From the NCBI GenBank assembly GCA_000004985.1, contig GG738888.1: a stretch of 64,000 nt of DNA; one strand, given 5' to 3'. This document shows positions 4,670 to 37,463 of the stretch, piece by piece. Below the pieces are notes generated by a model. That model ran no database searches, was not told where the DNA came from, and saw nothing but the letters and a program-made list of their open reading frames with translations. This DNA is from Naegleria gruberi (Eukaryota). The translations under genes and the position numbers were made by a program. Position 1 is the first letter of the stretch; each line of letters starts with the position of its first letter.

Positions 4670-5216
4670 TTAACACTTTTCAATCCATTTGGAAACAAAT
4701 TGACGATATTGTTCAGCAGTTTCTTCCAATTCTTCAACTGATTTCTTATTGGCACGATAAGTAATGAATGGTTCGCTCCATTCCAATTTACATCTGTGAG
4801 CGAGAGCTTTCAATGGATTCAACAAGTCATCGAGTGGAATCAAATTCTGACCCTCTGGAGTGTATGCCTCTTCAAAATTACCAGCTGTTACAGAAATCAA
4901 TAATGGTTTGCCCTCCAATTTCAATCCTTCCTCTCCATAACGAATATAGTACATTCTTGTGAATGTTTCATCAATCCATTGTTTCATGAAAGCTGGCATT
5001 GAGTACCATTGGATTGGAAATTGGAAGATAATTCTGTCTGCATTCAAAAGTTCTTTGGACATCAGAATTGGAATCAAACTTTTTACCATTCTCAGTAAAT
5101 AATTGATGCATGTTGATAATTTCAATATTGTCAAGAGTTGACAAGGCCTTGATCATTGAACGATTGGCTTGAGAGCTTTCAAATCTTTCGTGGAAGAAGA
5201 GGACAAGAGTAGACAT
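4670..5216 (-). CDS. flavodoxin-fold NAD(P)H:quinone oxidoreductase (KefF/MdaB/NQO-type), reading frame interrupted
   Basis: Track ORFs 4971..5216 and 4670..5134 in different frames together align along the KefF family (HQLF..., RIIFQFPIQWYSMPAFMKQWIDETF, LISVTAGNFEEAY). Removing one base from the T5 run at ~5080-5084 (plus strand) fuses them into one ~180-aa ORF. Confidence 0.55.
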
Positions 5217-5440
5217 TTATTTGTTTTGTTGTTGTTTGTTTTCGAATAATTGAAACATTCGAAATTAAATAGTATTTCTGAAATGTCTTCTTTTGGATTT
5301 GTGCTTGCGCTTGGCGGATTATTTTATAGCTCAAGTAAATCGAACATTAAATTTTCTATGCAATAGGGAAGTATTAATACTCACTATTCGTTCTATTTAC
5401 TGTCTATTTGGGAATGATAAGATGATAAATTGAAGGTGTA

Positions 5441-7264
5441 CTAAAACCTTCTGGTCTTTGGTACGGTAATGAAAAGTTTTGCAGCACTGAAATCTGCTTT
5501 GAGTAAGCTTTCTCTATTGATGGTATAAACAAATTGTGCATCGAATGGCATACCTGGATAATTAGCATTGGTTGACAAAAGAATAATATCATCCTTGTCA
5601 GTCTGTAAATCATTTCTAAAGGTTGCTGTGTATTGTCCACAAATGGTACCAATATATGATGGACAATTGGAAGTATGATTGAAATATTCATAATCTTCAA
5701 ATTCTTTTTTGGAATCAGCAAATACTCTTGTATCTAATGAGAGACCTAATTTCAAAGATGAATTTGCAAATTTAGTAATGGTTAATTCGTCTATTTCAAT
5801 TCCAGTAACCAATGGAACGGTTGAATTATCTTGGTAATCTTGATAAATAACATAACCATCATAAGAATCAATATTTGGTACGGAAGCATTGATTTGAAAA
5901 CTATCAATCTTGGCAAAAAAGTATAAATATCCAGATTTTGGTAATTGGCAATCAATGAATGAGCTTATTTCAGAAAAATCAATTTGTCCAATAAAAGCAT
6001 ATCTCTTTTTCCAAAGTTTGGATTTGTCAATCATGTTGGGATTTCCTCCAATCTTGGTTCTACGCCCATCGGTGGGGATTGAGGAATTGAATATGAAAAT
6101 TTCCCGATAAAAGTTAACAGATAATGAAACGGACTGTTTTAAAATCTCCCTGAAACTATTGTCACATGAATCCGTTCTCATTTTGCTTTCAACTAGTGAA
6201 TCTCTGCTACTAATATATGGATATATATCCGAAAAGAATTTGTTTTTCCATCCTTTCGAATCAAAGTTTCTAATATCTGAAAGAGTTCTACTGGTTCCAA
6301 ATGTTAAAAATAAAGGATCTTCAATCTTAGTCAAATGATAGCAATACTTCCAAATATCATCATTTTCAACAATTAAACTATTCCAATACTTGCAAACTGT
6401 TCTCATTTTCAAAAGGTCATCAACATTTCCCACAAATTTCAAAATATTTGAATGAACATCTGGTGAGATGGATGAAAAAAATGGACCTTCTCTAATTGAA
6501 ACTTGAGAAGAATCAGTATGTTGATTGAACAAATTATTAACAAGCACAGAAAGTACATTAGAAATTGAACAAATACTACTTGGAAGAGATTCAAGTAGTT
6601 CAGAATCATATTTGATAGCATTTTCAATGGCAGGTTGACCAACTGAAAAGCAAGAACAATCTCGTGTGTAATTTGAAGCAAGTTCAACAATTTCTCCCAT
6701 GACATAGCATACTATTATTTTCAAACCAACAGCAAGGACCTTCTCTTGTTTTTCAATTTGCTTTAAACTTGACAAGTTAACATTGAAATATAGAGCAATA
6801 AATCTCTCTACAGATTTTCCCTCTTCCGACTCATCTTCCATCACCTTTTCAATTGGTAAAAGAGTAGTCATTGGATATTCACCCAACCTTCCTTTCAAAT
6901 TCTTTCTACAGATTTCCATGATTAAATCATGAATATCTTGACAATGTTCCTGACTATCCATTGCATTTTCATTAGTAAAGCCATCAAGTAATTGTTTAAT
7001 GGCTTCGGAAGAATCTGTTCTCTTCAATAGTACATATGGCTTTAAATCATCAATTAATTTCAACAATAAAACCAAACCAATGGAGGCTAGAGTTTTATGA
7101 CCATGACAAGACATGAACATGTCATTATTGTGGCCAGTAGTGGGTGGAAAGTAATAGTGCTCGGCTAGATTTTTGATTAACTGATCGGCATTGAATATGG
7201 ATTGAAAAGAGGTGAGTGAACAAAAATTGATCACTGTTTGTGGAGGCTCTGTACGTGATGTTGC
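5441..7264 (-). CDS. F-box-like domain protein with C-terminal DUF1963 (YwqG-like) domain
   Basis: Single long ORF. Mid-protein F-box-like stretch (ILKFVGNVDDLLKMRTVCKYWNSLI). C-terminal GGNPNM...YLYFFAKIDSF...DGYVIYQD resembles bacterial YwqG/DUF1963 (family name from memory). Confidence 0.5.
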   Translation of the reverse strand, partial: ATSRTEPPQTVINFCSLTSFQSIFNADQLIKNLAEHYYFPPTTGHNNDMFMSCHGHKTLASIGLVLLLKLIDDLKPYVLLKRTDSSEAIKQLLDGFTNENAMDSQEHCQDIHDLIMEICRKNLKGRLGEYPMTTLLPIEKVMEDESEEGKSVERFIALYFNVNLSSLKQIEKQEKVLAVGLKIIVCYVMGEIVELASNYTRDCSCFSVGQPAIENAIKYDSELLESLPSSICSISNVLSVLVNNLFNQHTDSSQVSIREGPFFSSISPDVHSNILKFVGNVDDLLKMRTVCKYWNSLIVENDDIWKYCYHLTKIEDPLFLTFGTSRTLSDIRNFDSKGWKNKFFSDIYPYISSRDSLVESKMRTDSCDNSFREILKQSVSLSVNFYREIFIFNSSIPTDGRRTKIGGNPNMIDKSKLWKKRYAFIGQIDFSEISSFIDCQLPKSGYLYFFAKIDSFQINASVPNIDSYDGYVIYQDYQDNSTVPLVTGIEIDELTITKFANSSLKLGLSLDTRVFADSKKEFEDYEYFNHTSNCPSYIGTICGQYTATFRNDLQTDKDDIILLSTNANYPGMPFDAQFVYTINRESLLKADFSAAKLFITVPKTRRF

Positions 7265-7331
7265 CATTTTTTTTAATTTCACAATTTTCTGGAATATTTT
7301 TTCTGAGAGATTGTTACAAATAGTAAACTAT

Positions 7332-8646
7332 TTACTTGGAATAAACAACACTTCCGTTCATGATAACAGCAGAAATTGGAGGATCACACAATTCATAAAT
7401 GATATGTTCCCAATTCTTAGAGTCAACAATGACACAATCACCAACCTTTCCAACAGCCAAACTACCATGGGTTGCAGACTTTCCAATAGATGCAGCAGCA
7501 TTCAAAGTACAAGCAACAAGAGCTTCATTCAATGTCATTCTCATATTCACACAACTCAAATGCATAACAAATGGAAGTGACATACAGTGAGCATTTGGAT
7601 TGTAATCAGTTGACAAAACAACTGGAACTCCATTGTCAATCATTTTTCTTGCAGGTGGATAAGCAATTCTTAAAATATAGGCAGTTGTTGGTAAGAGAGA
7701 TGCACAAATATTCTTCTCTGCCATCAATTCAATTCCCTTATCACTCACATGTTCACAATGACTAACAGCCAATGCATCTAATTCATGAGCTAGTTCAGCA
7801 CTTCCCATTGGATTCAATTCATCTCCGTGGAAGTTGATTCCAAGTCCTAATTGTTCCTTTCCTGCTTTGAGAACTTGTCTTGTTTCTTCAGTTTCAAAAA
7901 CTCCCTTCTCATGGAAAACATCAATCAAAGTTGGACCAATTTCATCCTTTTCAATCATTTTAGCAAGGGCAGGAACTTGTTCTTCAAGAATTTGCTTGGT
8001 ATAAGCTTGCAAATTGGAATCTTTTGGAACTGAATGTCCTCCAAGATAATTACTAACAATTTCAGGAATTCCCAATTCGATATGCTTCTTATTGGCTCTA
8101 TGCAAAACCTTCAACATTTTAATTTCAGTTTCAGTTTCCAAACCATAACCAGATTTTCCTTCAATCAATGTAGAACCATTCTTCAACATGGTCTTACATC
8201 TCTTTACCAATAAATCCAACAATTCATCTTCACTCGATTCACGTGTATGTCTAACAGTAAATCCAATTCCTCCTCCCATCTTGTGAATATCCATATAAGT
8301 AGCTCCTTGCAATTTTAACACAAATTCATGACAACGATCACCACTCCAAACAGGATGAGTATGACTATCAACCAATCCTGGAATGACACTCTTTCCCGAG
8401 CAGTCAATTTCTTGTTCAAACAATTTTCCATTATTTTCATCACCATGATGATATCATGAATCCAATTCTTTAATTCCGCTTCATTTCCAATAAATACAAT
8501 TTTACCATCATGACCAATAATCATGGCCCCGGACCCTCCTTGAATAATCTCCAACTCGTTTTGTTCCTTTCCTTTTAATAATTTCTTGGAGGCATCTCGG
8601 GAAATGCAACAATTTGCTCTGCATTCTTGAGGAGTGTTTTATACAT
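7332..8646 (-). CDS. hutI: imidazolonepropionase (HutI, EC 3.5.2.7), ORF interrupted by two apparent 1-nt frameshifts
   Basis: Main ORF 7332..8423 has DSHTHP metal site and aligns full-length to HutI. Upstream ORF 8315..8554 encodes the N-terminal beta-strand region (GKIVFIGNEAEL). True ATG at 8646 (MYKTLLKNAEQIVAF, A-rich context) is in a third frame. Adding one base near 8599-8601 and one A to the A4 run at ~8424-8427 restores one ORF of ~437 aa. Confidence 0.7.
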
Positions 8647-8792
8647 TTTTTTTCAAGTGTTTTTTACAACAAGATTTGCTGTTGTGTTGGATAAGATATT
8701 TTATGGAGGATTCTCAGGATTGTAAACAAGAGGTCAAGTAATATGTAATGGAGGTAAGGTCAATGTGTTGAAACACCGAGTTGATGAGATTT

Positions 8793-9828: not shown

Positions 9829-9942
9829 TTTTTTTTAAAATTGAAAATTGTAAAAGAATTTTAAATATTTAAAGTATTTAAAAAACAAACTTTTGCTAAA
9901 ATTTTGTAATGGAATATAGAACAAGTTCTAATTTTAAAAAAA

Positions 9943-11229: not shown

Positions 11230-11233
11230 AAGT

Positions 11234-11307: not shown

Positions 11308-11366
11308 TTACAGTGAGTTATTAAACAACATATTTGTTACCTTAATCCGCCTTAAAATAATTTATC

Positions 11367-12230: not shown

Positions 12231-13175
12231 TTTTTTTGAAAATGTTTTCTTTTCGTTGTTGAAGCGTAAAGTTCAAATTTTTATCTTCACCGATCTGCAA
12301 CTATTTTCTTAAATTTCTTTACAGTTAATTTCGCGCCAACTAAAAACCGCTGAAAGTTGTCTATTCTTACCGTTAAATATTCAACAAAAAAAAAACAATT
12401 ACTCATCATGATTTCATCACCATGAGGAAAGTTCTCCCTTTTCTTCCTTCCACATCAGCCATGACCACATTCAAACCATAACAACATCTATATAAATTTG
12501 CCTGCCATTTACCAGGAAGATGTTGGTACACATTATAGTGAAGGTTCATGAACCGAAGTACATTATTGCTAGAAGAACACGCATATAATTGATACTTTGG
12601 AACAGCCCTGTCTCACTCTCTTTGATATGTTTTTCTATTTTGTAAAGAAGGATTGACTGGTCTAGGTAAGAATAGTGAAAAGGTAACTTTGAAAGAATAT
12701 CGCTGGTGGATACATTGTGGAGAGTTTTGATTCTTTGGAAGAAATTCCAATCACTGAAGATTTATACCGATTAAAATAAACACTGTAACACTATCCATCT
12801 CAATTTAAGAAACTTTATTCTAATCTCTATAAAACAATTCCCAATTTAATACAACACAAATTACCCAAATTTCAATCAAAAACATTTCACACCTTCAACA
12901 AACTTTTTCATCCCTCACTTTTTATCTGAAACTTTTACTGTTTGCAAGTGAAACACGAAACACCAAATTGCACCTTCGCATTCTAAAAATAAAATTATAT
13001 CAATCATCAACATGTTCATCGCTTGTTCATAAAATGCAGACGCAATCAATGCTGATTATCACAGATCAAAAAAAAACGCAACAATTTTTCTTCGCGGCGA
13101 CGATTTTAATTTCTTTTTCCTATTAATTTCTTCTTTCTGTGCACACAACTACTTTTAAACCAACTCTCTCTGAAA

Positions 13176-14629
13176 ATGATCACTACACATCAATGTGCTC
13201 CATCGAATGCTACTACTGGATCAGCTCGTCTTGATTTATTCTTTAAAGCTGCTCGTGGTATTGAAGAAAGTTTCTTGTTGCAATTGGTTGAAGCTTCATG
13301 GAATGAAAATCCATTAGATACTTTAAAGTTAATTTTCCAAACACGTGATTGTCGTGGAGGAAAAGGAGAACGTGAAATTTTTCACAAGTGTTTGAACTGG
13401 TTGATTGACAATCACCCAGAAGATTTACTTGTCAATTTGGAACTTTTACCAGAATATGGTAGATGGGAAGATTTGTTGAGATATATCAATCAAGAAAAGG
13501 GAAAGATTGGTGAAACAATTTCCAAGCTCTTTGCTGAACAATTACGTAAAGATTATGCTGCTATGCATGATGGAAAGCCAGTTACTTTATGCGCCAAGTG
13601 GGCACCAACTGAGAATTGTAAACATGACAAGAAGTTTAGTGCTGTGAAACTTATTGCTAAAGAACTCGGAATTAAAAAGGCAGAATATAGAAAGCAATAT
13701 CTTTCACCACTCCGTGAATATATCAAGGTTGTTGAAAGATACATGTGTTTGAAGCAATGGGATGCTATTGATTATTCCAAAGTTCCAGGTAATGCCATGA
13801 ATAAGCTCAAAAAGGCATTCAACAAGCATGATCCTGAAAGATTTGCCGAATATATGAAAAAGTTAGAAAAGGGTGAAACAAAGGTCAATGCCACAACTGT
13901 TGAGCCACACGAAATTGTAGCTCAATTCATGTATGGACAAGCACAATCTGAAACTGATCAAATTTTGGAATCTCAATGGAAGGAAATTGTCAAACGTGTC
14001 CAATCTCTTGGAAACATGGATCATGCATTGGCAGTTGTGGATGTATCAGGATCAATGAGTGGAACACCACTCAAGTAGCAATTTCCATTGGGCTGTTGGT
14101 GTGTGAATTATCAATGCCACCTTTCAGAGGAAAATTGATTTCTTTCCATGAAGATCCTCAATTCTGTACCATCAATCTCAACACTACTTTACGTGAAAGA
14201 GCTCAAGAAATCATGCTTATGCCATGGGGTATGTCTACAAACTTTTACAAGGTCTTTGAAACAATTTTGAGAGAGGCCAAGCAAAATAAGTTGACTCAAG
14301 ATGAAATGCCAACTTCCATCTATGTCATTTCTGATATGCAATTCGCATCTGCTGCTGGTAGTTCAATGAGCAATTTGGAATATATCAAAAAGTCCTATGC
14401 TGAAGCTGGTTATGAATTGCCAAAACTCATTTTTTGGAATGTCAATGGTAATTCTCGTGATTTTGTCAGTGGTAATGCTCTTGAAAATAATGTTGCCATG
14501 ATTTCTGGTTTCTCACCATCTCTTCTCAAAGCTGTTTTGAATGGTGATGATTTTACCCCATTTGCTATCATGATGAAGGCCATTCAAGATGAAAGATATT
14601 CCAAGATTAAATTGGCCAGCTCTGAATAA
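13176..14629 (+). CDS. von Willebrand A (MIDAS) domain protein of the DUF2828-like family, frame interrupted
   Basis: ORF 13176..14078 ends in the MIDAS motif VVDVSGSMSGTPLK*. ORF 13976..14629 continues in another frame with the expected post-MIDAS helix (QVAISIGLLVCELS...GKLISF). Adding one base near 14066-14072 gives one ~484-aa ORF. The alternative 53-nt GT..AG intron would delete a conserved helix and is disfavoured. Confidence 0.55.
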
Positions 14630-14771
14630 GCAAATTGACCTTATCAAAGTAGATAATGTTTGTAAAAAAACAAAAAATCCTTATTAAAAAGTAAAAACTC
14701 CAAAAAAGTACTCTACAATTTCTTTTTAGTTCTTTTTTGTGAATTTTTTTAAGTGAAAACAGTAGAAAAAA

Positions 14772-16690
14772 ATGTGTCAATTTATCAAGAAGGCACTGTT
14801 TACATTGTGTTTGTCCATCATAATGTTGTGGATGTATCAATATTTCAATCCCGAACATTCAATTATTAATCATGAACATTATGGAGCTGGATATAAATTG
14901 AATGCACCAATGCCTTCACGTTCCGAGCTGATTTCCAAATTGGAGAAGCATAAGAGCCAATCTGAAGATGAATTTGATGTTTTAATTATTGGAGGTGGAG
15001 CAACAGGTTTGTTTTCTTTTATTTAAAATTGGAGAACAAAATACTTGAATTATGTTGAATTTAAATTGATTAAAAGGAAGTGCAATTGCATTGGATGCCA
15101 ATTCTAGAGGACTCAAAGTTGCTTTATTTGAAAAGGAAGATTACAGCAGTGGTACATCCAGTCGTTCAACAAAATTACTTCATGGTGGTGTAAGTATTAA
15201 AGCAAATTTGAAAATTTACAAAAATTGTAAGGTGAGATATTTGAAAAAAGCAATGACAAATTTGGATGCTTCACAATTCTTCCTTGTCAGAGAAGCTCTC
15301 CATGAAAGATATCTCCTCTTCAATCAAGCTCCACACTTGACCAATTTCATTCCACTCATTACACCAATCTATTCATGGAGTGAAATTATTCCAACATTTA
15401 TTCAATTGAAACTCTATGATTGGATTGCATATCCACATCTTCATGATAGTTATTTTGTTAGCGCAGAGGAAGCTAGCAAATTATTCCCAATGATTAAGAA
15501 GGAAGGTCTGAAGGGAGCCATGATTTATTATGATGGTCAATTTGATGATGCCAGAACTAATCTGGGATTAATTTTGACTTCCATTCAGAGAGGAGTATTG
15601 TCATTGAATAGATTTGGAGTTGTTGAACTCACTCATAATTCCACAGGAAAATTGAATGGAGCTATTGTGAAGGATGAATTGACTGGAAAAACATATCCAG
15701 TTAGAGCTAATACTATTATTAATGCAGCTGGACATTTTGCTGATGATATCAGATTGATGGATGATGCAACATCTACCAAACTTCTTCAAGCAGCTTCTGG
15801 AATTCACATTGTTTTGGATGGTAAATTCTGTCCAGCCAATGAAGGACTCTTAATTCCAAAAACGAAGGACAATCGTGTGTTATTCTTACTTCCATGGAAG
15901 GGTAAAACACTTGCTGGAACAACTGACTCTCCAAGTCCAATAACCAATAATCCAAAACCAAGTGAAGCTGATATTCAGTACATTCTCGATCACATTAATA
16001 TGTACTTCCAGGTGAAGGTTTCGAGAGAGGATGTCTTATCTGCCTGGAGTGGAATTAGACCATTGAAGAAGGCGACTGAGGAGAAGGATACTGCATCAAT
16101 CTCTAGAGAGCATGCCATTTATACATCACCAAGGTAAGTAGTTGGCACTTTGCTCAATAATTATTCATATTGAGTGAAGTGGATTAATGACAATTATTGG
16201 AGGAAAATGGACAACTACTAGAAGTATGGCTTCAGATATTATGGAAAAGGCCATCAAACAATCTCCACAACTCCAAGAAAGAATAATTGGCCCACCATTC
16301 ACTGATAGAATCAAATTAGTTGGTGGTGAGGAGTTCAATCCTCTCTATGTTAAAAAGATGAAGCTCGATCCAATCATTGCTGAGCATTTGAATTCAGTTT
16401 ACGGAGATCAAGCTTATTTAGTTGAAGAAATTGCTTTGAAGGAAGGACGTACAGCAAAGCTTCATCCACTCTATCCATTCATTGAGGCAGAAATTATCTA
16501 CTCAATTAGATATGAATATGCTGTAAAGATTTTGGATATTCTAGAAAGAAGAACTAGAATTCAGTTCATTGATACCAAGACATCTTCATCTCTCATTCCA
16601 ATTATTTCTCAAATTATGGCTGAAGAATTGAAATGGACTACAGAACAAAAAACTGCTGAAGAACAAGAAGTTCATAAATATTTACAATAA
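14772..16690 (+). CDS. GPD2: mitochondrial FAD-dependent glycerol-3-phosphate dehydrogenase (GlpD/GPD2-type), 3 exons
   Basis: join(14772..15006,15077..16133,16180..16690). Exon1 ends in FAD motif DVLIIGGGATG. Intron1 15007..15076 (GTTTGT..AAAG, 70 nt). Exon2 aligns to human GPD2 (SAIALDANSRGLKVALFEKEDYSSGTSSRSTKLLHGGV ... SISREHAIYTSP). Intron2 16134..16179 (GTAAGT..GAAG, 46 nt). Exon3 SGLMTIIGGKWTTTRSMA... Phases consistent; ~600 aa, no EF-hand tail. Confidence 0.8.
15007..15076 (+). other. spliceosomal intron (70 nt, GTTTGT...AAAG) in G3P dehydrogenase
   Basis: Spliced product GGGATG|SAIALDANSRGLK matches GPD2 alignment; phase 1. Confidence 0.7.
16134..16179 (+). other. spliceosomal intron (46 nt, GTAAGT...GAAG) in G3P dehydrogenase
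   Basis: Spliced product YTSP|S|GLMTIIGGKWTT matches GPD2 (SESGLITIAGGKWTT); phase 2. Confidence 0.7.
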
Positions 16691-16717
16691 AGAACTTACC
16701 TTTACAAAATACAAGAA

Positions 16718-17683
16718 TTAAAATAATGCCTTGTAAACATTCATTAAAAACTCTTGATCAAATAAAATCATTTCAACATTGAATTTCATCCAATCTACAT
16801 CAAACTTTCGTTTGGCAGCTCTAATCACAAGTTTCAAAACAATTTCTCTATCCTCCACAATATCCTCACCAAGATAATCTATTTTTTCCACAATCTTGAA
16901 TAATTTCTCATAGGGCTGGTCAAGTGCAAAGAGTACAGTTTCCTTACTATTCCTAAATAGAGAAGCAGCAAATTTTAGAGCATATCCATTCGATTTGATG
17001 GCCTCCATTACAATATTGTTGTCGTAGGAGCAATCACTATTCAATAATCTGAGATTCAAACCATCTCTCCGCACATATTCCAATAATTCTTCCAAAGTTG
17101 TTTCCTGAGATAGTATAAAATCACAGGGAGAGTATGGGCTATCAAGGAGTGAACATCTTTTCTTAGATGGAGAATTGAGAAATTCATGGATAGAATCCAC
17201 CTCCACATATAGCTTTCGTTTGTGAGATGGTATAAACTTAATAGAATCACTATTTTGCTTCAAGGCTTCTGAAATTACGTCATCATTCATTAATTCATCA
17301 GGTACATGCTTGATTACAAATCCATTCACTTTAACAGCATCCATCACAAATGATTTGTCCTGAAATAGTTTTGTCATTAATCGACAAGATTCCAAATTTT
17401 TCACACTTTCCAAAGCAATTTCCCTATCCAAATGAAACTTTTTCTGAAACCAATGTAAACAACTATTATTGACCATCAATGATCTCTTCACAAATTCTCT
17501 ATCATTCTGTAACTTTTTCGAAGCAAACGTAACAGCAAAATGATAATTTCGAATAGCTGCCAACATGATCTCCCAATCATTCCTAAAATTCATCGTTAAC
17601 TTCTTCACATCATTCGCAGTAAGAGTTTTATATTGCAATAATAGTTGCAATACTAATTCCCTTGAGATGTAACCACCTCCCAT
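16718..17683 (-). CDS. DUF4116-type repeat protein (KxDREvvLxAv repeats)
   Basis: 321-aa ORF with repeated ~30-aa units (FRNDWEIMLAAI, LQNDREFVKRSL, LHLDREIALESV). Upstream same-strand ORF 17653..17985 in another frame may be its 5' part via a frameshift. Confidence 0.45.
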   Translation of the reverse strand: MGGGYISRELVLQLLLQYKTLTANDVKKLTMNFRNDWEIMLAAIRNYHFAVTFASKKLQNDREFVKRSLMVNNSCLHWFQKKFHLDREIALESVKNLESCRLMTKLFQDKSFVMDAVKVNGFVIKHVPDELMNDDVISEALKQNSDSIKFIPSHKRKLYVEVDSIHEFLNSPSKKRCSLLDSPYSPCDFILSQETTLEELLEYVRRDGLNLRLLNSDCSYDNNIVMEAIKSNGYALKFAASLFRNSKETVLFALDQPYEKLFKIVEKIDYLGEDIVEDREIVLKLVIRAAKRKFDVDWMKFNVEMILFDQEFLMNVYKALF

Positions 17684-18256
17684 CCCATCAAATTCTCTCG
17701 TAAACGATCCAATAAATTCACACTTTGCAACACAGCCTGATCAAAACAAATTCGGGAGATGAGAAAAGCTAAAACCTGATTACATAAATCTATTCTCTGC
17801 CTCCGATGATAGAGTTGGAGAAGTATATCGGATTGGAATGATTGATCGAGTAATAGTATTACATTGTCAATATTATGATCGGAGGATGATGATTTATTTT
17901 CCTTTAGTCTTTTGCAAGACTCTTCGGAATTGATTTGAAAAGTTTCATCATCACTTTGCAAGAAACATTCACGATTTCTTTTCATTTTTTTTAAATTAAT
18001 TTTTTTTGAATTAAAATTGAAAAATCATTTATGGAAATTTAATTTGAGATAGAAAGACCAATTCAAATTATTAAGTTTAGGGGTAGGTTGAAAGAGAAAA
18101 AATTATTGCAAAATGGGGTTTCGAAAGAAGTTGAAAGTTTATACAATAAAAAAATTGAGATGGATTTTTCTATTTACATATCTCCATCTATTGAATAAAT
18201 ATAAATCTGAAATCTAATCTTGATAAGTTAGATTCTAGGGTATAGTACAATTAGAT

Positions 18257-19290: not shown

Positions 19291-19330
19291 ATGAGTTTTT
19301 GCTTTTGAAGCCCTATCAATTAATTGTTGT

Positions 19331-26973: not shown

Positions 26974-27886
26974 ATGATTTTCAAAGGCTCACCCGTGTCA
27001 TCTTTTAGAAAAATAACAACCAACTACTTTTCTTCAGTTCATCATCACAACATTAATAATTTAATGATGACATCACAGCAGCCACACAGAAGGTTTTTCC
27101 AATTCAACCTCCAACTATTATCAAGTACATTATCGGCGAGGGTGGTAAAAACATTAAAGATATTCAAGAACGAAGCAAGTGCAAAGTGTCAATTAATAGT
27201 GCCAATAGTTCGGTTTTGATTAGTGGAGAAACGAGTGGCAATGTTGAAAATGGATGGAAATTGGTAGAGGAAACGATGAGGTCTTTCGGTTGGAGATATT
27301 CTCACGATTTGAAGGTTTTTCAAGAGGTCATTAATGAAGGTTTGTTTCTTTGGAATTTAAATTCAAAACATGTTATGGAAATAGCACAAAAACTATTTGC
27401 TGAGTTGGAGTCTAAAATTGAGCAGGAAGCAAATGAGATGGGTTCTTGTTTTGAAAAGTCACAAAAGGCCTTTAAACAAGACAAGAAGGCAGATGCCAAA
27501 AAGTGGAGTGATGAAGGAAAGAAACATCAGATACTGATGGAACAATACAGGAGAGAATCATCGGCAAAGATGTTAAATTTTGTGTAAGTATTCGCCTTTC
27601 GCTATTGGTTGAATTGACCACAAAATTACTACAAAGAAACAAGAATAATGGAGTTGAAGTGCTGGATTTACATGGACAATATTCTGAATTTGCTTTGGAT
27701 ATTCTGAAGAATAGAATAGCAGAGTTGAGAAAGAAACAAATTAAACAATTAACAGTAATTTATGGAGCTGGAAATCACTCAAACAAAAAGTATCCAATTA
27801 TCAAGAATTCTGTAACAACCTATCTCAAGAATCAAAGAATTTCTTACGAAGAAAGCAATGCTGGTCAACTAGTTGCAAAGATTTAA
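26974..27886 (+). CDS. KH domain - DUF1771 - Smr domain protein (N4BP2/Cue2-like architecture), 2 exons plus one apparent frameshift
   Basis: Three track ORFs. KH motif (TIIKYIIGEGGKNIKDIQERSKCKVSI) lies in frame 0 opening at 27060 while the upstream part is frame 1. Adding one T to the T5 run at 27094-27098 joins them. DUF1771-like helical region (KKADAKKWSDEGKKHQILMEQYRRES). Intron 27584..27636 (GTAAGT..AAAG, 53 nt, phase 2). Last exon 27637..27886 encodes Smr (VEVLDLHGQ...VIYGAGNHS). Start codon uncertain (26974 or 27064). Confidence 0.55.
27584..27636 (+). other. spliceosomal intron (53 nt, GTAAGT...AAAG) before Smr exon
   Basis: Phase 2 (gt|a); joins DUF1771 region to VEVLDLHGQ. Confidence 0.6.
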
Positions 27887-28760: not shown

Positions 28761-31700
28761 ATGGAGCAAAACCTAAAGAGAAGTCATGATGACATGGTTG
28801 AGAATGAGCAGAGATCTACTACCTTGTCCTCTGTTGATGCTAGTGTTCAAGAACCGGAAAGGAAAAAGATAAAAGCTAACAATGTTGAAGAACTTGTGGA
28901 GGAGACTAAATATTGGTATCATATTATTGCTAGTTTGGATAATGGTCCAGTTAATTATAAGAGTTTTGATCAATTAGAGAAGGGGCTCACAGATAGGGAA
29001 AAAGTGATTGAAAATATCAATCAATTATGGCATGTTCACAAAGCTAGATTGATTTTGGAAAGTTTGGATTTGTCCAATCCATATTGGAATGAAGATTGGT
29101 TCGAATTAACAAACAATGTTGGTGAATTACCAGATACTGAATATGAAGATGTCAAACTAAAAGATAAGGTTACAGCAGAGGAATTGGGACTAACAAGTGA
29201 AATATCCAAAGATCTACTCAAGGAATATATTAGTAAGAGAGAGGATATTGAATCACACAGCTTATTCTTGGTAGAAAAGCTGTTCAAGAAATGTTTGGTT
29301 CAATCTGTTGAAGAAATCACAGAAATGATAGACAAATGTATTGAAATAGATGAAAAGAATGTTGAGGTTTACTTTAGACAATTAATGGATTCAGATCTGC
29401 CTTATGATATGAGCTCCAGAAAGACAATTCTTGATCAATGGAGCAAGTACATTTTACCACAAATTGTGAAAACTCAAAATGAGTTGAATATGATAGATGA
29501 TCCAGTTAGTTTGTCAACAAACGAAGAATCCAAAACAGTTAGCAAGTTTGTACTTGAAAATGATAGTGAAGATACTGACGCCTTCTTACTGGAGACAATG
29601 CTCTTTGGAGATGAGGAACACATTAAAATAGTCAAGCAAGATGAAAAAGATGATGAAGAGGATTTCAACGATGATTACGTCCCTGATATCTTTTACTGCT
29701 CATATTTATTTGACATGGAGCTTCCTGACGAGAAGGGAAAAATAGGATCAAACTTTTTAGGATTATTGCATTGTGAGCACAACAATTCTAACGAAAACAT
29801 CTACCTTAAAATTATAGAAATTGTGATGAAAATGCATATGATTGGTGTTGCTCCTCAAGAACACCAGGAAATTGAGGTATCAGAATTGAGATTGGCAGTC
29901 TCTTTAATGATTTTGGATTGTCTTAACAAGGAGTTGACTTATTTGATTCTATCTCAGAGTAAAGAATCCACATACATGCTTTATAGACCATTAGTGAGAG
30001 CAATCCTTGACCAATTTATTGTTGACTATTGTAACCCAACCAAGTATGACAAGTATATGTTTGTGATATGCACAAATCCTGACATCCAACCAATGATAAA
30101 TGTCATGTTTGAAGAAGAGTCTGTAGTAGACACTGATAATTTAACATGGGATGTTGTGCAAACTCAAAGAGGTTCATGTTTAGATGAGGAAGAAGAAAAT
30201 AATGACGTACAACAATCAGTAAAAGAAAAACATCCTATTTGGGAGAGTACTGTCGACAAATTGAAGGAAAAATACTTTACACACCAAACAGAGGCACATT
30301 CTAAAATAAGTAGACAGAATTTGGATGATTCAATGTATATTACCTATTATACAGATAGAGACAATGCTATTAGTGAACCATTATCAAATCAAAATTTGGT
30401 TTCCTTTTACAGATATGTAAGTTTTCAAATATTCAAAATCTCTAAAACTTTTTAAAGGATTTTTTCGATTACAGTGAAGAACCATTTACCTATGAACAAA
30501 CAGCTGATAATCTGATTGAAAATAGATCAATAGATTGTTATTACAAGAATGATAAATCTCTACATCTGGATTTAACAAGATTATTGAGAAGAGGTGGTGT
30601 TGCATCATTTGATGAAGGACTACTTCTTGAGGCATATAGTACTTTGAAGAATTATATTTCACTCAGCTTGCAAACTCTTGAAGATATTTCTGAAGATGGC
30701 ATTGTTGAAGTAGATCATGTGGAAAAAGTTGCCAAACTACTGGCTATAAAAGGCGGTACTAATGGAAGAGAGTACATTCGTCTAGAACTTCCATACTATT
30801 ACAAACTAGACTATCAACAAGATACTCCAGTTGCAAAAGAGCTGGATGATGTCAGAGATTTAGAAGAAGATTTATTGAGAGGTACCGAAATTGTTGAACT
30901 TGAACCAGTTAGTGCTAGTACCAATCAAGAAATACCAGAGGGTTTAGGAAAGGATCTCTACAATGCTTTAAATAATGAACAATTTAGTTCATTGTGTGAT
31001 AGTTTTATTCAAACTGAGGATGGTGCCAAGGTTGGAGTTTTTACTCCAATCATTAAAGATAGATTACCAGAGTTTTATAGTCAATACTTTGATAGCGAAG
31101 AAAAGAGAAAGAACGGCCTTTGCATAACATCAGTACATTTTGAAGTTCAGGAGGGAGAACAATTAATCTTTGATGAAGTGGTTATCACCAAATGGTTGAC
31201 TTGCATTTATACTGGTATATTTGAAATCGAGTCTTCAGAAGAAGAGAAAAATATATTAACAATTGAGAAGTTATTGGCCAAATGGGTTCCAAGAGAAGAA
31301 GTCTCTTTGAAAGAACCAAAACATGAAACGCAACCACCACAAGCAACTGCTATAATGATAGACGAAAATGAGGAGGAGGATTCAGAAGAAGAATCAAGTG
31401 AGGAAGATTCAGAAGAAGAAAGCCAAGCTTATCAAGAAGAATCTGATTCAGACTCGGAAGAAGGCATATATAATTATAGTGATGAAGAAGAAGAATCCAT
31501 ATATTACAAAAAAATTAAAGAAGAAGAGGAAAAAACATTTAAATGTGAACCACTTTCTAGACTATTTCTTGATGAAGAAGGAAAGGATTTCTCTCTGGTT
31601 GTGAATAGCCATATAGTTAAAGTTCACAAGTACATTCTTAGCATTAGAAGCTCTTATTTCAAAGTACTATTTTTAGGAAATTTCTCTGACAAGAACATTT

Positions 31701-32332
31701 CAGAATATGATGTTTCAGATTTCTTAAAGAATCCACATTCGTTGGACTTGTTCGTCTACTTTTTGTACCACGACACGTTGGAGAATGAAAACTTTACACT
31801 AGAACATTATAAGTATCAAAATTTGATTGATTTGGAAGAATTTTCGCAATTTGTATTGTCTGAAAGATTGAAATCAGAATGCGTCTCGAAACTTATTAGC
31901 CATTCAACTTTGGAACAAACAGTTGAAATGTTAAGAACAAGTTTAGAAGCAAACAAGGAAGAAGTTTTCAACATTGCACATACCATCCTCCTCAAAACTC
32001 AATATCCATACTTTAATGGCACTATAATTGATGATGTCACCACTCAATACTATCAAGTTATGTGCACTTCTTTAACATTGGAAAACTCTCTTGTAAAATT
32101 GGACTATCTCAACAAGATTGAACAAACAACCACAGCCTTACATCCATTCATACTCAATCAAATCAAATCCCAAATAGAAAACCTTCACTGGTTCATTGCC
32201 AACCGAGCTTCATCTCTCGATAACAAATTTATCCGAACTTTACCTCAACCTGTTCAAGAGTTAATCTCTCGCTTCTTCACGCATGATAATTTGGGCATGG
32301 CAAGTTTTGAGGAGGTAACTATTGAAGAATAA
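28761..32332 (+). CDS. large acidic hypothetical protein (composite of ORFs 28761..30455 and 30584..32332)
   Basis: Downstream ORF has no ATG for ~250 codons and its frame is open back to 30446, so it must be 3' to the upstream ORF (ATG 28761 in cacaaaaaaaATGg context). Two junction models, each needing a single 1-nt correction. One is a canonical 58-nt intron 30417..30474 (GTAAGT...TTACAG) that leaves a 1-nt phase error. The other is read-through with one extra T in the T5 run 30449-30453. Glu/Asp/Ser-rich stretches; no family assigned. Confidence 0.4.
30417..30474 (+). other. putative spliceosomal intron (58 nt, GTAAGT...TTACAG) with 1-nt phase discrepancy
   Basis: Canonical donor, pyrimidine-rich 3' end and AG; as written, splicing gives an immediate TGA. 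Confidence 0.35.
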
Positions 32333-32485
32333 TTCAATCATACATAGATATTTATTATTAACTAGTGTATTTCTTCTCTGAGATTGTGAGTAAAATTGTA
32401 CAGTATTCTGTTTCATATCTTTACATCAGTTAGGTGTAGAAATGAATTTATTTTACAATTATCAGAAAGAATATATCTATTGGTT

Positions 32486-32911
32486 TTAGAAAATATTATA
32501 AACCTTATCTGATTTCTTTGCCTTTCTAGCGCATTCCAATCTCTTCTCTTCAGTCTTGACAATCTCCTGACAGAATGGTTTGTGAACTTTCCAATTGGAT
32601 TTCATACACTCTACAGAACAATATCTTTCAATCTTGCATCCACCACAATAATGATTTGCTTTCTTTCCACAATTGGCACATTTAAAGTCGAATTTCAAAC
32701 GACACTTTGCAGGATGAGACAGAATTGGATAGTTTGGCTTGAACAAGATAGCACCCTTAGTATTGAACAATGCATAAATAACTTGTTGAACGGAAACATC
32801 GACGAGACCTCTATCTGTTCTGGCTATTTCAAGCTTCTCTAAAGTGTCACGTTTTTCTTCTTCTGAAGTGTCAGGAGAGAAACCAAATTTTACAGGTTTT
32901 GGAAAGGTCAT
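32486..32911 (-). CDS. MYND-type zinc finger protein
   Basis: 141 aa; CANCGKKANHYCGGCKIERYCSVECMKSNWKVHKPFC is a canonical MYND C4-C2HC finger. Confidence 0.6.
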   Translation of the reverse strand: MTFPKPVKFGFSPDTSEEEKRDTLEKLEIARTDRGLVDVSVQQVIYALFNTKGAILFKPNYPILSHPAKCRLKFDFKCANCGKKANHYCGGCKIERYCSVECMKSNWKVHKPFCQEIVKTEEKRLECARKAKKSDKVYNIF

Positions 32912-32945
32912 GCAACAAATCTTTTCAAAGTAAGCTTGTTGTTCC

Positions 32946-34066
32946 TTAATCCATTGAGCTGAAATAAATTGGTTGAAAATGATGAATATTTAGAATGTTA
33001 AACGACTTACCTTGAGCTGGGAAACATGGAATTCTTGAATTGATTGGTACATCTTGACACATCTCAGCAATAAGATTTGGAATTTGTGCAAATAACGAAT
33101 CAACAAAAATAAATTGGATCATATTTAACCAATCTTGGAAATTCTCATTCTTGTGCAAAGTTGTTCCAAACTCAAAGGCCAACTTGATACTTTGCATTCG
33201 TGTAAAATTCTCCTTGTATATTTCAACAATTTTCTCTCTAAACACGTATCTCCTTTCTTTGGTTCCTTTCATTAAAGTGCTTTCCAATTGTTCTGGAATG
33301 TCTTCATATTCTGCATTGATCATTTCCCAGCCTTTCTGAACTATTACAAGATTATGCTTGAATAATTCCATTGCAATTTTGTCTTTGGAGTTATTCTCAT
33401 AAGTTTTGGAACGCTTGGCTATTTCTTCTTGAATCATTTCTACTTTCTTTGATGAAATCTTCTTTTTGGCAAGTGATTGACTGGCATTGGCAGTTGTTTT
33501 TTCATGTTCTTTAGGAGAAAAAGCAGCTCTATACGAATCAAAAGTTGGATCCAAACGTTTTCTCATTTCATACGAGCCAGAAAAAATTATTTCATTATCA
33601 ACTTGATGCATGAGAATCTTTTTGAGATAAACGAGAGTGAAAATAGTGCACATCTTGTCCTGAGTTTCGGTTAATCTTGTTCCCTCAATAACTTCTCCCT
33701 CAATTTCATGAAATTGAACTGATAATTGCTTTCTCAATATGAAATTGCTGAGAAGATTACAGACGAAACAAAGCTTGTGTTGAGGAGAAAGATTATCGTA
33801 CATATTTCTGAAAACAGTGTTATGTGAAAAGAAGCCACTATATTCAACAAAGACTATTCACCAAGATGATTTACAACCTTATTCGAAACAAGTTTAAACT
33901 TACCTTCCTTTTCAGGATGAGAAACATTCAAATCTACAAAACGCTCCCAATCTCTAATAATTCGTGGAATCAACAATTTGAATAATTCACAATACTTTTC
34001 ATACATTGGCAATCTCTCCAAAGGAAATGCTATAACTTTACTACACAATTCGTCCCAATCATACAT
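32946..34066 (-). CDS. hypothetical protein, 2 exons (phase discrepancy at splice)
   Basis: Exon1 34066..33904 (first in-frame ATG MYDWDELCSK; track ORF begins at TTG 34135). Intron 33903..33808 (GTAAGT...TTTTCAG, 96 nt). Exon2 33807..32946. Phases sum to 2 nt, so one base seems missing, likely in the A3 run at 33805-33807. Confidence 0.4.
33808..33903 (-). other. spliceosomal intron (96 nt, GTAAGT...TTTTCAG), 1-nt phase discrepancy
   Basis: Canonical signals join ORFs 33854..34135 and 32946..33803 but phases sum to 2. Confidence 0.45.
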
Positions 34067-34284
34067 TCCAGTCCTTTCGTATTTGGTTGTGTTGACATTT
34101 TTTTTTGGTTGTTTTTTCTTGAAACTAACTCTCAAAGGAGGAACATATTGGGCTAGGCTTGCGCGACAATATTGTAAACTAGGCTATTTTTTTCAAAGCC
34201 TTTGTTTTTCTGGGTTAGTTTCTATACAACAAGTTTAACAAGTTTGGTTGGTGGTTCGATTCCTGGCGCTGTTAACAATATTTT

Positions 34285-36342: not shown

Positions 36343-36633
36343 CAGCAGCCAAGCTTCTTTTCATTTTTTTTCTAATATTTTCCAACGAAATTCACTAGAA
36401 CTTGAAAATGTATACAGATAAATGGCGGGAAACTTAAACCACAAACAAATTGAAATTCCTCACCGGACAATTTTAATGTGCTTTTATCCTCATTTAACCT
36501 CCCTCAATTTCTCAACTTTAAAAAAAAATACATCCAACTAACAACCACGAAATCTTTGCCAATTTTTTAAAGAAAACGTGATTCGGAAGTTATTAGATTT
36601 ACCTATTGCGATCATCAATATTAATATTAAAAA

Positions 36634-37463
36634 ATGGATTTTCAAAAGGCTGCAACCAAGTTGAAGGAACGAGGCAATGAACACTTTAAAAAGAATGAAT
36701 TATCGGAGGCTATTAAATGTTATCAACAAGCCTTTGAACATGATGAAGATGCCTTCTTTAAAACAAACTTGGCTCTTTGTTATATTAAATTAAAACAATA
36801 TGAGAAGGCTACGGAGGAGTGTAAATCTGCAATCAAGTTGAATCCAAAGTTTGTAAAGGCTTATTTCTTGTTGGGAGAATGTCATTTGAATTGTTTGAAT
36901 TATGAGCAAGCTGAGAGTGCTTATTTGAAAGCTGAAGTATTGGCTAAGGAATTACATAATACATCCAAATCTATATTGCTGAATATTTATAAAGGAGTCG
37001 ATAGATCGAGAGCAAGGAGATATGAGAAACAAGAACAGGAGAGACAATCAGTAGTTGCAGAATTGAAAAAGTATGTCGAAAAGACGATGGACAATTATGA
37101 AAATATGGAATGGTCAAATCATCAACTGAAAGAGAAGAGTTTAATCTGAAAAAGTTTCAATTAGAGTCCTTCTTTGAACAGAATTTGCATCCACACAAGG
37201 AAACTGAAGTCCCAGATGTTTTGTGTTGTAAAATAACCTATACTATTATGAGAGATCCTGTCATTACAACATCAGGTATAACTTATGAACGATCTGCCAT
37301 TGAGAAACATTTACGAGAGAATGGAACGTTCGATCCTGTAACTAGACAACCTTGTACAATATCACAACTTTATCCAAATTTAGCTGTTAAAGAAATGGTG
37401 GAATCTTGGATTGAGAAACATCCTTACACAATAACAGAAGATCACTACTATATAATGGATTAA
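36634..37463 (+). CDS. CHIP/STUB1-like E3 ubiquitin ligase (3 TPR + coiled coil + U-box), frame interrupted
   Basis: ORF 36634..37149 has TPR repeats (KERGNEHFKKNELSEAIKCYQQA...). ORF 37110..37463 has the U-box (PDVLCCKITYTIMRDPVITTSGITYERSAIEKHL...DPVTRQPC), very close to metazoan CHIP. Adding one A to the A3 run at 37129-37131 fuses them (~276 aa). Only a 26-nt non-canonical GT..AG is available as an intron. Confidence 0.65.

What the first reader, a model, noticed from the sequence alone, without database searches (positions are those of the whole stretch)
4670..37463. At least eight genes are split by single-base indels, mostly in A/T homopolymers
Nine adjacent same-strand ORF pairs or gene junctions need an indel. 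They are the KefF-like reductase (T5 at 5080-5084), HutI (two sites, ~8599-8601 and A4 at 8424-8427) and the DUF2828/vWA protein (~14066-14072). They also include the KH-Smr gene (T5 at 27094-27098), the 28761..32332 composite (T5 at 30449-30453 or the intron at 30417..30474) and the 32946..34066 gene (A3 at 33805-33807). The last two are CHIP (A3 at 37129-37131) and possibly the DUF4116 gene at 17653-17683. In each pair the two ORFs are neighbouring segments of one well-conserved protein. A single-nt change restores a continuous ORF, and no phase-compatible GT..AG intron fits. Seven of the nine needed corrections are an extra base in a short homopolymer. That pattern is typical of long-read or pyrosequencing homopolymer under-calling, not of random pseudogenisation. 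The flanking codons remain conserved, which argues against decay. Any proteome predicted from this assembly would be systematically fragmented.
Basis: seen in the sequence. Interest (0 to 1): 0.6.

Follow-up and report, generated by a model that had tools for sequence, protein, structure and literature searches.

The report
Frameshift lesions in Naegleria reference assembly
Six conserved genes in this stretch of the Sanger-era Naegleria gruberi reference genome are broken by seven small insertions or deletions that are absent from a nearly identical strain, so they are most likely flaws of the reference sequence and matter mainly for gene annotation.

Summary
The window is the Naegleria gruberi NEG-M reference: seven ORF or gene-model translations are exact RefSeq proteins. 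That assembly is Sanger, not long-read or 454.

Of the nine junctions, seven are true frame breaks in six genes: KefF-like, HutI (two), DUF2828/vWA, DUF4116, KH-Smr and CHIP. The other two (30417 and 33805) are ordinary 41- and 50-nt GT..AG introns; the second reproduces XP_002673825.1 exactly.

Illumina contigs from run ERR1078381, from a strain 98-99.6% identical, carry intact ORFs at five sites. A protein 98% identical (origin not traced) is unbroken at a sixth. Against the contigs the reference lacks one base at 8452/3, 8607/8, 14074/5 and 37105/6, and has a 5-nt tandem duplication at 17678-17687. At KH-Smr it holds two extra bases at 27075-27080.

The broken genes show purifying selection and no stops once repaired. 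RefSeq is already affected: HutI is truncated, DUF2828 is bridged by a false intron, and CHIP was not found.

Best explanation: consensus errors in the draft (about 0.6). Rival: real NEG-M alleles (about 0.3). Recoding is excluded. Interest is low.

The parts
4670..5216 (-). KefF-like / Flavodoxin_2 NAD(P)H quinone reductase gene. The frame break is +1 type, meaning one extra base in the reference. It is placed at about 5056-5062 (gene strand CAAAGAA), not at T5 5080-5084.
   Evidence: Pfam Flavodoxin_2, E=3e-32. The protein repaired by removing one base aligns as a single stretch, 1-176, to PDB 5lva, KefF 3eyw and 4gi5. The spacing from the conserved D to AD is 13 residues, as in the homologues. 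The 34- and 49-nt GT..AG candidates would delete this segment, which I read as the helix between two strands of the fold. No independent DNA was available for this site.
7332..8646 (-). Imidazolonepropionase (HutI) gene with two one-base deletions in the reference. One is between 8607/8608 (+ strand AAA to AA). The other is between 8452/8453 (+ strand GATGAT[G]ATC, not a homopolymer).
   Evidence: Alignment to ENA contig L004 (98.0% identity) shows exactly these two 1-nt gaps inside the gene. Inserting the two bases gives a 438-aa ORF that is 436/438 identical to P0079. RefSeq XP_002673820.1 is the 320-aa truncation starting at MDIHK.
13176..14629 (+). DUF2828/DUF7788 (vWA-like) gene. The reference lacks a C between 14074/14075 (AA[C]GTA). 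This follows directly on a patch of 8 substitutions at 14054-14072.
   Evidence: Alignment to ENA contig L005. Inserting the C gives 484 aa, 478/484 identical to P0077. RefSeq XP_002673754.1 (466 aa) equals the model with a false 53-nt intron, 14075-14127.
16718..17985 (-). DUF4116-repeat gene, disrupted by a 5-nt tandem duplication at 17678-17687 (+ strand TCCCATCCCA; gene strand TGGGATGGGA).
   Evidence: L005 lacks one copy and encodes an uninterrupted 420-aa ORF. Removing 5 nt from the window gives 420 aa, 415/420 identical. This refutes the 47-nt intron candidate, 17737-17783.
26974..27886 (+). KH / DUF1771 / Smr gene. The frame break lies at 27075-27080 (TCACAGCAGCC), where the reference has two extra bases; it is not at T5 27094-98. 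The gene has two real introns: 27340-27384 (45 nt, in frame, stop-free) and 27584-27636 (53 nt).
   Evidence: P0085, 98% identical, reads MMTSSATQKVFPIQPPTIIKY. That joins window frame 1 (MMTS) to frame 3 (ATQKVFP). Only the removal of 2 nt reproduces this peptide; no single insertion does. P0088 shows the MIFK... N-terminus contiguous with the KH domain. The gene is syntenic with the N. fowleri locus L001.
30417..30457 (+). A canonical 41-nt intron (GTAAGT..TTAAAG, phase 0) that joins ORFs 28761..30416 and 30458..32332. No frameshift is needed.
   Evidence: Phase-compatible, with the consensus donor, and within the 40-53 nt size class of 10 of the 13 accepted introns listed for this window. 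It was not verified against an orthologue, and the 1176-aa model is not the annotated protein.
33854..33903 (-). A canonical 50-nt intron (GTAAGT..GAATAG, phase 1) in the MYND-finger gene 32489..34135. A second intron lies at 32959-33010. There is no frameshift at 33805-33807.
   Evidence: The three-exon model built with these introns is identical to XP_002673825.1 (NAEGRDRAFT_71092, 492 aa).
36634..37463 (+). CHIP/STUB1 (TPR + U-box) gene. The reference lacks a C between 37105/37106 (ATA[C]TGG), not in a homopolymer and not at A3 37129-31.
   Evidence: This is the only indel within the 4.5 kb shared with contigs L006 and L007 apart from L006's adapter-contaminated end. Inserting the C gives 276 aa, 257/257 identical to the related strain's partial ORF. 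That length equals N. fowleri CHIP, and 190/276 residues are identical. The 26-nt and 62-nt intron candidates would remove conserved residues (YVEKTM, REEFNLKKFQLE).

Best explanation
The seven frame breaks are defects of the 2010 Sanger draft consensus of Naegleria gruberi NEG-M, not biology. Small indel errors were fixed into the reference sequence. They then propagated into RefSeq as truncated, falsely spliced or missing gene models.

Shown:
- The breaks are in the reference.
- They interrupt otherwise constrained genes.
- A 98-99.6% identical genome sequenced with Illumina has none of the five breaks that could be compared as DNA, and a 98%-identical protein (P0085, origin not traced) is unbroken at a sixth.

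Inferred:
- They arose when the consensus was built.
- A plausible setting is a region where two roughly 2%-divergent haplotypes were assembled apart, or as a mosaic, at about half the nominal coverage.

The mechanism is not homopolymer under-calling.
For: Identity of the assembly. Seven ORF or gene-model translations from the window are exact N. gruberi RefSeq proteins on a 351,708-bp contig. PMC9928731 Table 1 lists NEG-M as Sanger-sequenced.

Intact copies elsewhere. Contigs from run ERR1078381 (L004, L005, L006, L007) carry intact HutI (438 aa), DUF2828 (484 aa), DUF4116 (420 aa) and CHIP. P0085 is intact at the KH site.

Selection. Between the two genomes there are 43 synonymous and 32 non-synonymous codon differences in 3676 codons, giving dN/dS of about 0.2. 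HutI shows 8 and 2, CHIP 1 and 0. Repaired ORFs contain no stops.

Other coding indels. The two other indels seen inside genes away from a contig end are 3 and 15 nt, so in frame.

Signature. All 8 one-base indels in non-coding DNA between the strains lie in runs of the same base. Only 1 of the 4 one-base coding deletions does (Fisher p=0.018). This points to a different process from natural slippage.

Asymmetry. All five DNA-compared breaks, and the KH-Smr break judged from protein P0085, are on the reference side.

Density. Six of roughly 25 genes broken in 33 kb is far above any plausible load of real loss-of-function alleles.

Local mosaic signal. 900 nt of identity is followed abruptly by 8 substitutions and a deletion within 22 nt at 14054-14075. 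A second N. gruberi contig, EFC35546.1, carries the other strain's variant, so haplotigs exist in the assembly.
Against: - No reads from NEG-M itself were available. The comparison genome is a different strain or haplotype (0.4-2% divergent), so NEG-M-specific real mutations cannot be excluded.
- A 5-nt tandem duplication (17678-17687) and a 2-nt gain in a CAGCAG context look like replication slippage, not base-calling error.
- The substitution patch beside the 14074/5 deletion keeps codon sense, with three synonymous and three conservative changes. It is real divergence, not noise.
- The other strain has its own 40-nt frameshifting deletion in the F-box/DUF1963 gene. Real frameshift polymorphism therefore exists in this species, unless that is an assembly artefact near a contig end.
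- About 2 errors per 10 kb is several-fold above what I recall as usual for an 8x Sanger draft.
- BUSCO figures for the assembly are only slightly worse than for its relatives (PMC6125883).
Confidence: 0.6

Rival explanations
1. The lesions are real. NEG-M carries a haplotype with genuine frameshift alleles in these genes, and the assembly happened to report it. Function is supplied by an intact second allele that resembles the ERR1078381 haplotype. NEG-M is a clonal, axenic, heterozygous and possibly polyploid laboratory strain.
For: - The 5-nt tandem duplication and the +2 change in CAGCAG are typical slippage mutations.
- The deletion at 14074/5 borders a patch of real, codon-respecting divergence.
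- The other strain has a 40-nt frameshifting deletion in a neighbouring F-box gene.
- The NEG-M assembly holds a haplotig with the alternative variant (P0074).
- Naegleria is described as a heterozygous diploid with changes in ploidy (PMC9928731).
- The affected genes (HutI, quinone reductase, CHIP, DUF proteins) could be dispensable in rich axenic medium.
Against: - Six of about 25 genes broken in 33 kb, all on one haplotype, is implausible for real alleles. The probability under random assignment of seven lesions to two haplotypes is about 0.016.
- There is no relaxed constraint and no additional stop in the broken genes.
- My rough estimate is that decades of laboratory culture are too short to gather this many lesions in 33 kb.
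- Three of the four one-base deletions are outside runs, unlike all 8 natural one-base indels in non-coding DNA.
Confidence: 0.3
2. The breaks are homopolymer under-calling by a long-read or pyrosequencing platform.
For: Most breaks are of the one-base-missing type, and A/T runs occur near every junction.
Against: - The assembly is Sanger.
- The directly mapped deletions are at GAT[G]ATC, AA[C]GTA, ATA[C]TGG and AAA to AA. At most one is in a run, and that run is only 3 long.
- One lesion is a 5-nt duplication and one is +2 nt.
- A/T runs of 3 or more occur in 85% of random 30-nt coding windows.
Confidence: 0.02
3. The breaks are tiny or unusual spliceosomal introns, or are recoded at the RNA or ribosome level by programmed frameshifting or editing.
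For: - Phase-compatible GT..AG pairs exist at most junctions: 34 or 49 nt in KefF, 26 nt in HutI, 53 nt in DUF2828, 47 nt in DUF4116, 53 nt in KH-Smr, and 26 or 62 nt in CHIP.
- Real introns here are only 40-112 nt, and some use GTTTGT donors.
- Two of the nine junctions really are introns.
Against: - At the seven sites the segments that splicing would remove are conserved coding sequence in orthologues.
- At six of the seven sites the related sequences (DNA contigs at five, protein P0085 at KH-Smr) encode the protein in one uninterrupted ORF with the missing bases present. No conserved recoding signal or intron exists there.
- In CHIP the shift lies 41 nt upstream of the zero-frame stop, unlike shifting at stop codons as described for Euplotes (from memory).
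Confidence: 0.02

Closest known systems
Frameshift (indel) consensus errors in draft whole-genome shotgun assemblies, and the false gene models they cause
   Same: - Isolated small indels lie inside otherwise conserved ORFs.
- The genes are intact in independently sequenced close relatives.
- Annotators bridged or truncated the genes: a false 53-nt intron in XP_002673754.1 and an N-terminally truncated HutI in XP_002673820.1.
   Different: - The local density is high for an 8x Sanger draft, at seven lesions in 33 kb.
- Two of the lesions (5-nt tandem duplication, +2 nt) are not typical base-calling errors.
- Read-level proof is missing.
Homopolymer-length errors of 454, Nanopore or PacBio assemblies
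   Same: One-base deletions that split genes into adjacent ORFs in different frames.
   Different: The platform is Sanger. Three of the four mapped deletions are single G or C bases outside any run. The longest run involved is A3.
Sheltered loss-of-function alleles or haplotype decay in heterozygous clonal eukaryotes, with collapsed or mosaic haplotype assemblies
   Same: - The reference differs by 0.4-2% from a second haplotype-like sequence that is intact.
- A haplotig of the neighbouring gene exists in the same assembly.
- Some lesions look like slippage.
   Different: - All lesions are on one side.
- The broken genes show no relaxed constraint.
- The density is far above known loads of loss-of-function alleles.
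Programmed ribosomal frameshifting (for example +1 at stop codons in Euplotes, or -1 at slippery heptamers)
   Same: Adjacent ORFs in different frames encode one protein.
   Different: No conserved shift site exists, because close relatives have a plain ORF. The shift positions are neither at stop codons nor at X XXY YYZ motifs.

Membership tests
Reference-assembly indel error | The frame break lies inside a gene whose two parts are contiguous segments of one conserved protein. | tested here: met
   Shown for KefF, HutI (two sites), DUF2828, DUF4116, KH-Smr and CHIP.
Reference-assembly indel error | Independent sequencing of the same genome shows the uninterrupted sequence. | tested here: inconclusive
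   Contigs from Illumina run ERR1078381 are intact at five sites, and protein P0085 (origin not traced) is intact at a sixth. They come from a genome 98-99.6% identical, not demonstrably NEG-M. No NEG-M reads were available.
Reference-assembly indel error | The broken genes show no relaxed selection and no further disabling changes. | tested here: met
   43 synonymous and 32 non-synonymous codon differences in 3676 codons. HutI shows 8 and 2. Repaired ORFs have no stops.
Reference-assembly indel error | Read depth or base quality is low at the sites. | not testable with these tools
Homopolymer under-calling (454 / long reads) | The assembly was made from pyrosequencing or long reads. | tested here: not met
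   The window is N. gruberi NEG-M. PMC9928731 Table 1 gives Sanger as the technology.
Homopolymer under-calling (454 / long reads) | The indels sit in homopolymer runs, typically 4 or longer. | tested here: not met
   One of the four mapped deletions is in A3 and the rest are outside runs. There is also a 5-nt duplication and a +2 change.
Spliceosomal intron | GT..AG boundaries, phase-compatible, size and donor like the accepted introns of this genome, and the removed segment is not conserved coding sequence. | tested here: met
   Met for 33854-33903, where the model equals XP_002673825.1. For 30417-30457 the boundary, phase and size criteria are met; conservation of the removed segment could not be checked. 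For the other seven junctions it is not met, because the removed segments are conserved and are present in the related strain's ORFs.
Programmed ribosomal frameshift / recoding | The shift site is conserved in close relatives and carries a slippery motif. | tested here: not met
   The related strain encodes each protein in one frame. No X XXY YYZ motif was seen at the HutI junction that was examined; the other sites were not formally scanned.
Unitary pseudogene | Fixed disabling lesions, with neutral evolution afterwards. | tested here: inconclusive
   Lesions are present, but constraint is not relaxed and there are no secondary stops. Fixation in NEG-M was not testable.

The most novel reading that the evidence does not exclude
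NEG-M really carries one haplotype in which at least six conserved genes within 33 kb have frameshift alleles, while the partner haplotype, which resembles ERR1078381, stays intact. That would be one-sided allele decay in a long-clonal, heterozygous or polyploid amoeba. It would be visible only because the 2010 assembly reported the decaying copy.
Probability: 0.2. Interest if true: 0.6.

Novelty: not a real feature. Interest (0 to 1): 0.2.

Why it matters
N. gruberi NEG-M is the reference proteome for Heterolobosea and is used in many studies of gene presence and absence across eukaryotes. At this locus the reference yields three faults. HutI is N-terminally truncated (XP_002673820.1). The DUF2828/vWA protein lacks 18 residues just after its metal-binding DxSGS motif because of a false intron (XP_002673754.1). 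No CHIP model was found at all.

Claims that Naegleria gruberi lacks or has altered these genes would be artefacts. The seven exact repair sites given here allow correction.

If the lesions were instead real alleles, they would bear on ploidy, clonality and allele decay in Naegleria.

Tried and rejected
Dead ends:
- Exact-protein look-ups of three intact ORFs in the gene-position index found nothing. Look-ups for the N. gruberi proteins P0066 and P0069 also found nothing, so that index lacks this assembly. This first misled me into thinking the species was absent from the databases.
- A 1601-aa chimeric query for the last word-indexed homologue search returned one irrelevant hit and wasted the search.
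- Two scans of JGI metagenome contigs, with KH-Smr and with KefF, found no relative.
- The Willaertia and ENA CHIP loci (L002, L003) held no syntenic KH-Smr gene.
- Guessed annotation models were not in the collection: CHIP with 62- or 89-nt introns, KefF with 34- or 49-nt introns or internal starts, KH-Smr with a 53-nt intron, DUF4116 with a 47-nt intron, and the 1176-aa composite.
- Paper searches for PRJEB11402, ERR1078381 and ERZ929261 found nothing. The 2010 genome paper is not held.

Rejected hypotheses:
- An alternative genetic code, because ORFs are long under the standard stops.
- A giant virus or ciliate origin, because canonical GTAAGT introns are present and the best hits are Naegleria.
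- My own earlier placement of the CHIP shift at 37113-37131, and of the KH-Smr break as either the T5 run or a 53-nt GTTCAT intron. Both were overturned by the related-strain sequences.
Full report
**What the window is.** The window has about 33% G+C and is densely packed with long ORFs of eukaryotic type: EGF-rich receptor kinases, F-box, BTB, RCC1, LRR and DUF4116 proteins. A repaired CHIP protein hits Naegleria fowleri best (68%), then an ENA contig (67%) and Willaertia magna (61%). Exact-sequence look-ups then settled the source. Seven ORF or gene-model translations from the window are identical to Naegleria gruberi RefSeq proteins on one 351,708-bp contig. Examples are XP_002673823.1, XP_002673834.1, XP_002673757.1, XP_002673829.1, XP_002673760.1 and XP_002673827.1. 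So the window is the NEG-M reference genome. PMC9928731 (Table 1) lists its sequencing technology as Sanger. PMC6125883 gives 1977 contigs, 784 scaffolds and a contig N50 of 160 kb.

**Introns of this genome.** Thirteen junctions with clear support define the local intron type.
- Length is 40-112 nt, and 10 of the 13 are 40-53 nt.
- The donor is nearly always GTAAGT, with single cases of GTATGT, GTAATT and GTTTGT.
- The acceptor is CAG, TAG or AAG.
- G+C content is 5-36%.

An in-frame, stop-free 45-nt intron with a second GTTTGT donor hides inside the KH-Smr ORF at 27340-27384.

**Two of the nine junctions are introns.**
That makes a 58-nt intron in the wrong phase. The acceptor AAAG at 30457 gives a 41-nt, phase-0 intron and a continuous 1176-aa reading frame. 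I could not confirm it with an orthologue, and it is not the annotated model.
- For the 32946..34066 gene, the donor at 33903 pairs with the acceptor at 33854 to give a 50-nt intron. Together with a second intron at 32959-33010, the resulting 492-aa protein is exactly XP_002673825.1. No indel is needed at 33805-33807.

**Seven true frame breaks in six genes.**

*CHIP.* Orthologues from N. fowleri, Willaertia and an ENA contig align without a gap across the junction. Residues the intron candidates would remove are conserved (YVEKTM, REEFNLKKFQLESFF).

*KefF-like.* Removing one base gives a protein that aligns as one stretch to PDB 5lva, 3eyw and 4gi5. It keeps the conserved 13-residue spacing from D to AD. 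The 34- and 49-nt GT..AG candidates would delete that whole stretch, which I read as the helix between two strands of the fold.

*HutI.* The three segments match the N-terminus of ten homologues in three different frames.

*Independent DNA.* Cluster look-ups showed that the 90%-identity clusters of the N. gruberi models also hold proteins from ENA assembly ERZ929261 and Logan, both made from run ERR1078381. Their contigs were fetched.

| Contig | Length | Window span aligned | Identity |
|---|---|---|---|
| L004 | 2298 nt | 6421-8737 | 98.0% (over 6564-8737) |
| L005 | 5587 nt | 12491-18143 | 98.2% (over 12491-18040) |
| L006 / L007 | about 4.5 kb | 36688-41182 | 99.6% |

In these contigs HutI (438 aa), DUF2828 (484 aa), the DUF4116 gene (420 aa) and CHIP (258 aa, running to the contig end) are single uninterrupted ORFs.

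*Base-level differences at the junctions.*
- The reference lacks one base between 8607/8608 (AAA to AA).
- It lacks one base between 8452/8453 (GATGAT[G]ATC).
- It lacks one base between 14074/14075 (AA[C]GTA).
- It lacks one base between 37105/37106 (ATA[C]TGG).
- It has a 5-nt tandem duplication, TCCCATCCCA, at 17678-17687.

Making these edits in the window restores the ORFs.

| Gene | Identity of the repaired ORF to the related strain |
|---|---|
| HutI | 436/438 |
| DUF2828 | 478/484 |
| DUF4116 | 415/420 |
| CHIP | 257/257 |

*KH-Smr.* An exhaustive profile search returned P0085, 98% identical, which reads MMTSSATQKVFPIQPPTIIKY. That joins window frame 1 (MMTS) to frame 3 (ATQKVFP). Only the removal of two bases within 27075-27080 reproduces this peptide. 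P0088, at 61% identity, shows the MIFK... N-terminus contiguous with the KH domain. This refutes both the T5 site and my own 53-nt intron candidate.

The lesions comprise four one-base deletions, one inferred one-base insertion, one +2 change and one +5 change. Only one lies in a homopolymer, of length 3. The proposed sites were wrong by 14-25 nt at four junctions. A/T runs of 3 or more occur in 85% of random 30-nt coding windows here, runs of 4 or more in 38%, and runs of 5 or more in 11%. A nearby run therefore carries no information. Phase-compatible GT..AG pairs do exist at most junctions by chance. The JGI annotation used one of them, at 14075-14127, to bridge the DUF2828 break.

**What the lesions are.**

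*Recoding and introns are excluded.* For the six sites with a related sequence, the relative simply has the bases.

*Decay is unlikely.*
- Between the two genomes there are 43 synonymous and 32 non-synonymous codon differences in 3676 codons, giving dN/dS of about 0.2.
- The broken genes look like their neighbours, with HutI at 8 and 2 and CHIP at 1 and 0.
- The two other indels seen inside genes away from a contig end are 3 and 15 nt.

*Points in favour of error in the reference.*
- All compared breaks are on the reference side.
- Six of about 25 genes broken in 33 kb is too many for real alleles.
- All 8 one-base indels in non-coding DNA between the strains lie in runs, as natural slippage predicts. 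Only 1 of the 4 coding one-base deletions does (Fisher p=0.018).
- At DUF2828, 900 nt of identity ends in a 22-nt patch with 8 substitutions plus the deletion. That looks like a junction between haplotypes.
- A separate 4229-bp N. gruberi contig (EFC35546.1) carries the other strain's variant of the neighbouring gene, so haplotigs exist in the assembly.

I infer that where the two haplotypes differ by about 2%, they were assembled apart or as a mosaic at roughly half coverage, which raised the consensus error rate. This step is inference and was not shown.

*Points against error.*
- The 5-nt duplication and the +2 change in CAGCAG look like real slippage.
- The substitution patch respects codons.
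- The related strain has its own 40-nt frameshifting deletion in the F-box/DUF1963 gene at window 6524-6563.
- No NEG-M reads were available.

I therefore give reference error 0.6, real NEG-M alleles 0.3, and the rest to mixtures and other causes.

**Consequences already visible.**
- XP_002673820.1, named imidazolonepropionase, is the 320-aa C-terminal part of a 438-aa protein.
- XP_002673754.1 lacks 18 residues just after its metal-binding DxSGS motif.
- No N. gruberi CHIP appeared among the CHIP hits.

**Verdict.** The reading as an artefact is reasonable, but its mechanism (homopolymers, long reads or 454) is wrong. Biologically this is most likely not a real feature. Its value is for curation.

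Noticed in passing
window 27340-27384 (+): A hidden 45-nt intron in the KH-Smr gene. It is in frame and stop-free, so it reads as ORF. The donor is GTTTGT, the acceptor is ATAG, and it is phase 1. A Naegleria homologue reads ..EIQSE|AQKLF.., and the related strain's ORFs P0085 and P0087 break exactly there.
   Followed up: partly
window 58542-58591 (+): A 50-nt intron with the non-consensus donor GTTTGT splits a histidine-kinase-like phospho-acceptor motif (my reading; no Pfam match): ..ISHEFR | SPCLSSLGSVELL... The overlapping ORFs 57589-58569 and 58542-59231 are therefore not a frameshift.
   Followed up: partly
window 6524-6563 (-), L004:2185-2195: The related strain lacks 40 nt, flanked by an 11-nt direct repeat (ATTGAACAAAT), inside the F-box/DUF1963 gene. 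This shifts its frame and ends the ORF at 268 aa. It is either a real frameshift polymorphism in the other strain or an assembly artefact close to the contig end.
   Followed up: partly
window 13155-14075 (+): About 900 nt with no difference from contig L005 is followed by 8 substitutions in 19 nt (14054-14072). Three are synonymous and three conservative (SMSGTPL against SMTGQPM). The frameshifting deletion comes next. This looks like a boundary of haplotype switching or gene conversion.
   Followed up: partly
window 50986-51404 (-), junction about 51125-51135: Two adjacent same-strand ORFs (51129-51404 and 50986-51135) with positive coding scores sit in frames one base apart. No plausible intron joins them; the only GT..AG there is 19 nt. 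There is no Pfam match and no homologue was checked.
   Followed up: partly
window 32489-34135 (-); protein P0074 (EFC35546.1): A second, partial N. gruberi protein on a 4229-bp contig duplicates the MYND-finger gene. It carries the ERR1078381-strain variant (EIEGDVIEG) and an extra upstream exon. It is probably an allelic haplotig in the NEG-M assembly.
   Followed up: partly
window 26.9-37.5 kb; L001 (N. fowleri VFQX01000034.1): There is partial synteny with N. fowleri. The KH-DUF1771-Smr gene, glutathione peroxidase and CHIP are neighbours there. In N. gruberi about 8 kb is inserted between them, holding the BTB composite gene, the MYND gene and a DUF4116 gene.
   Followed up: no
window 61264-61487 (-): At the 3' end of the 809-aa BTB/BACK-like gene, three frames stay open and overlap in a lysine- and glutamate-rich stretch. 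No evidence of a break was obtained, and the annotated protein XP_002673834.1 equals the plain ORF.
   Followed up: partly
L006 (Logan ERR1078381_749956), last about 25 nt: The Logan contig ends in Illumina adapter sequence (AGATCGGAAGAGC). This explains its extra apparent differences from the window at 41173-41207.
   Followed up: yes
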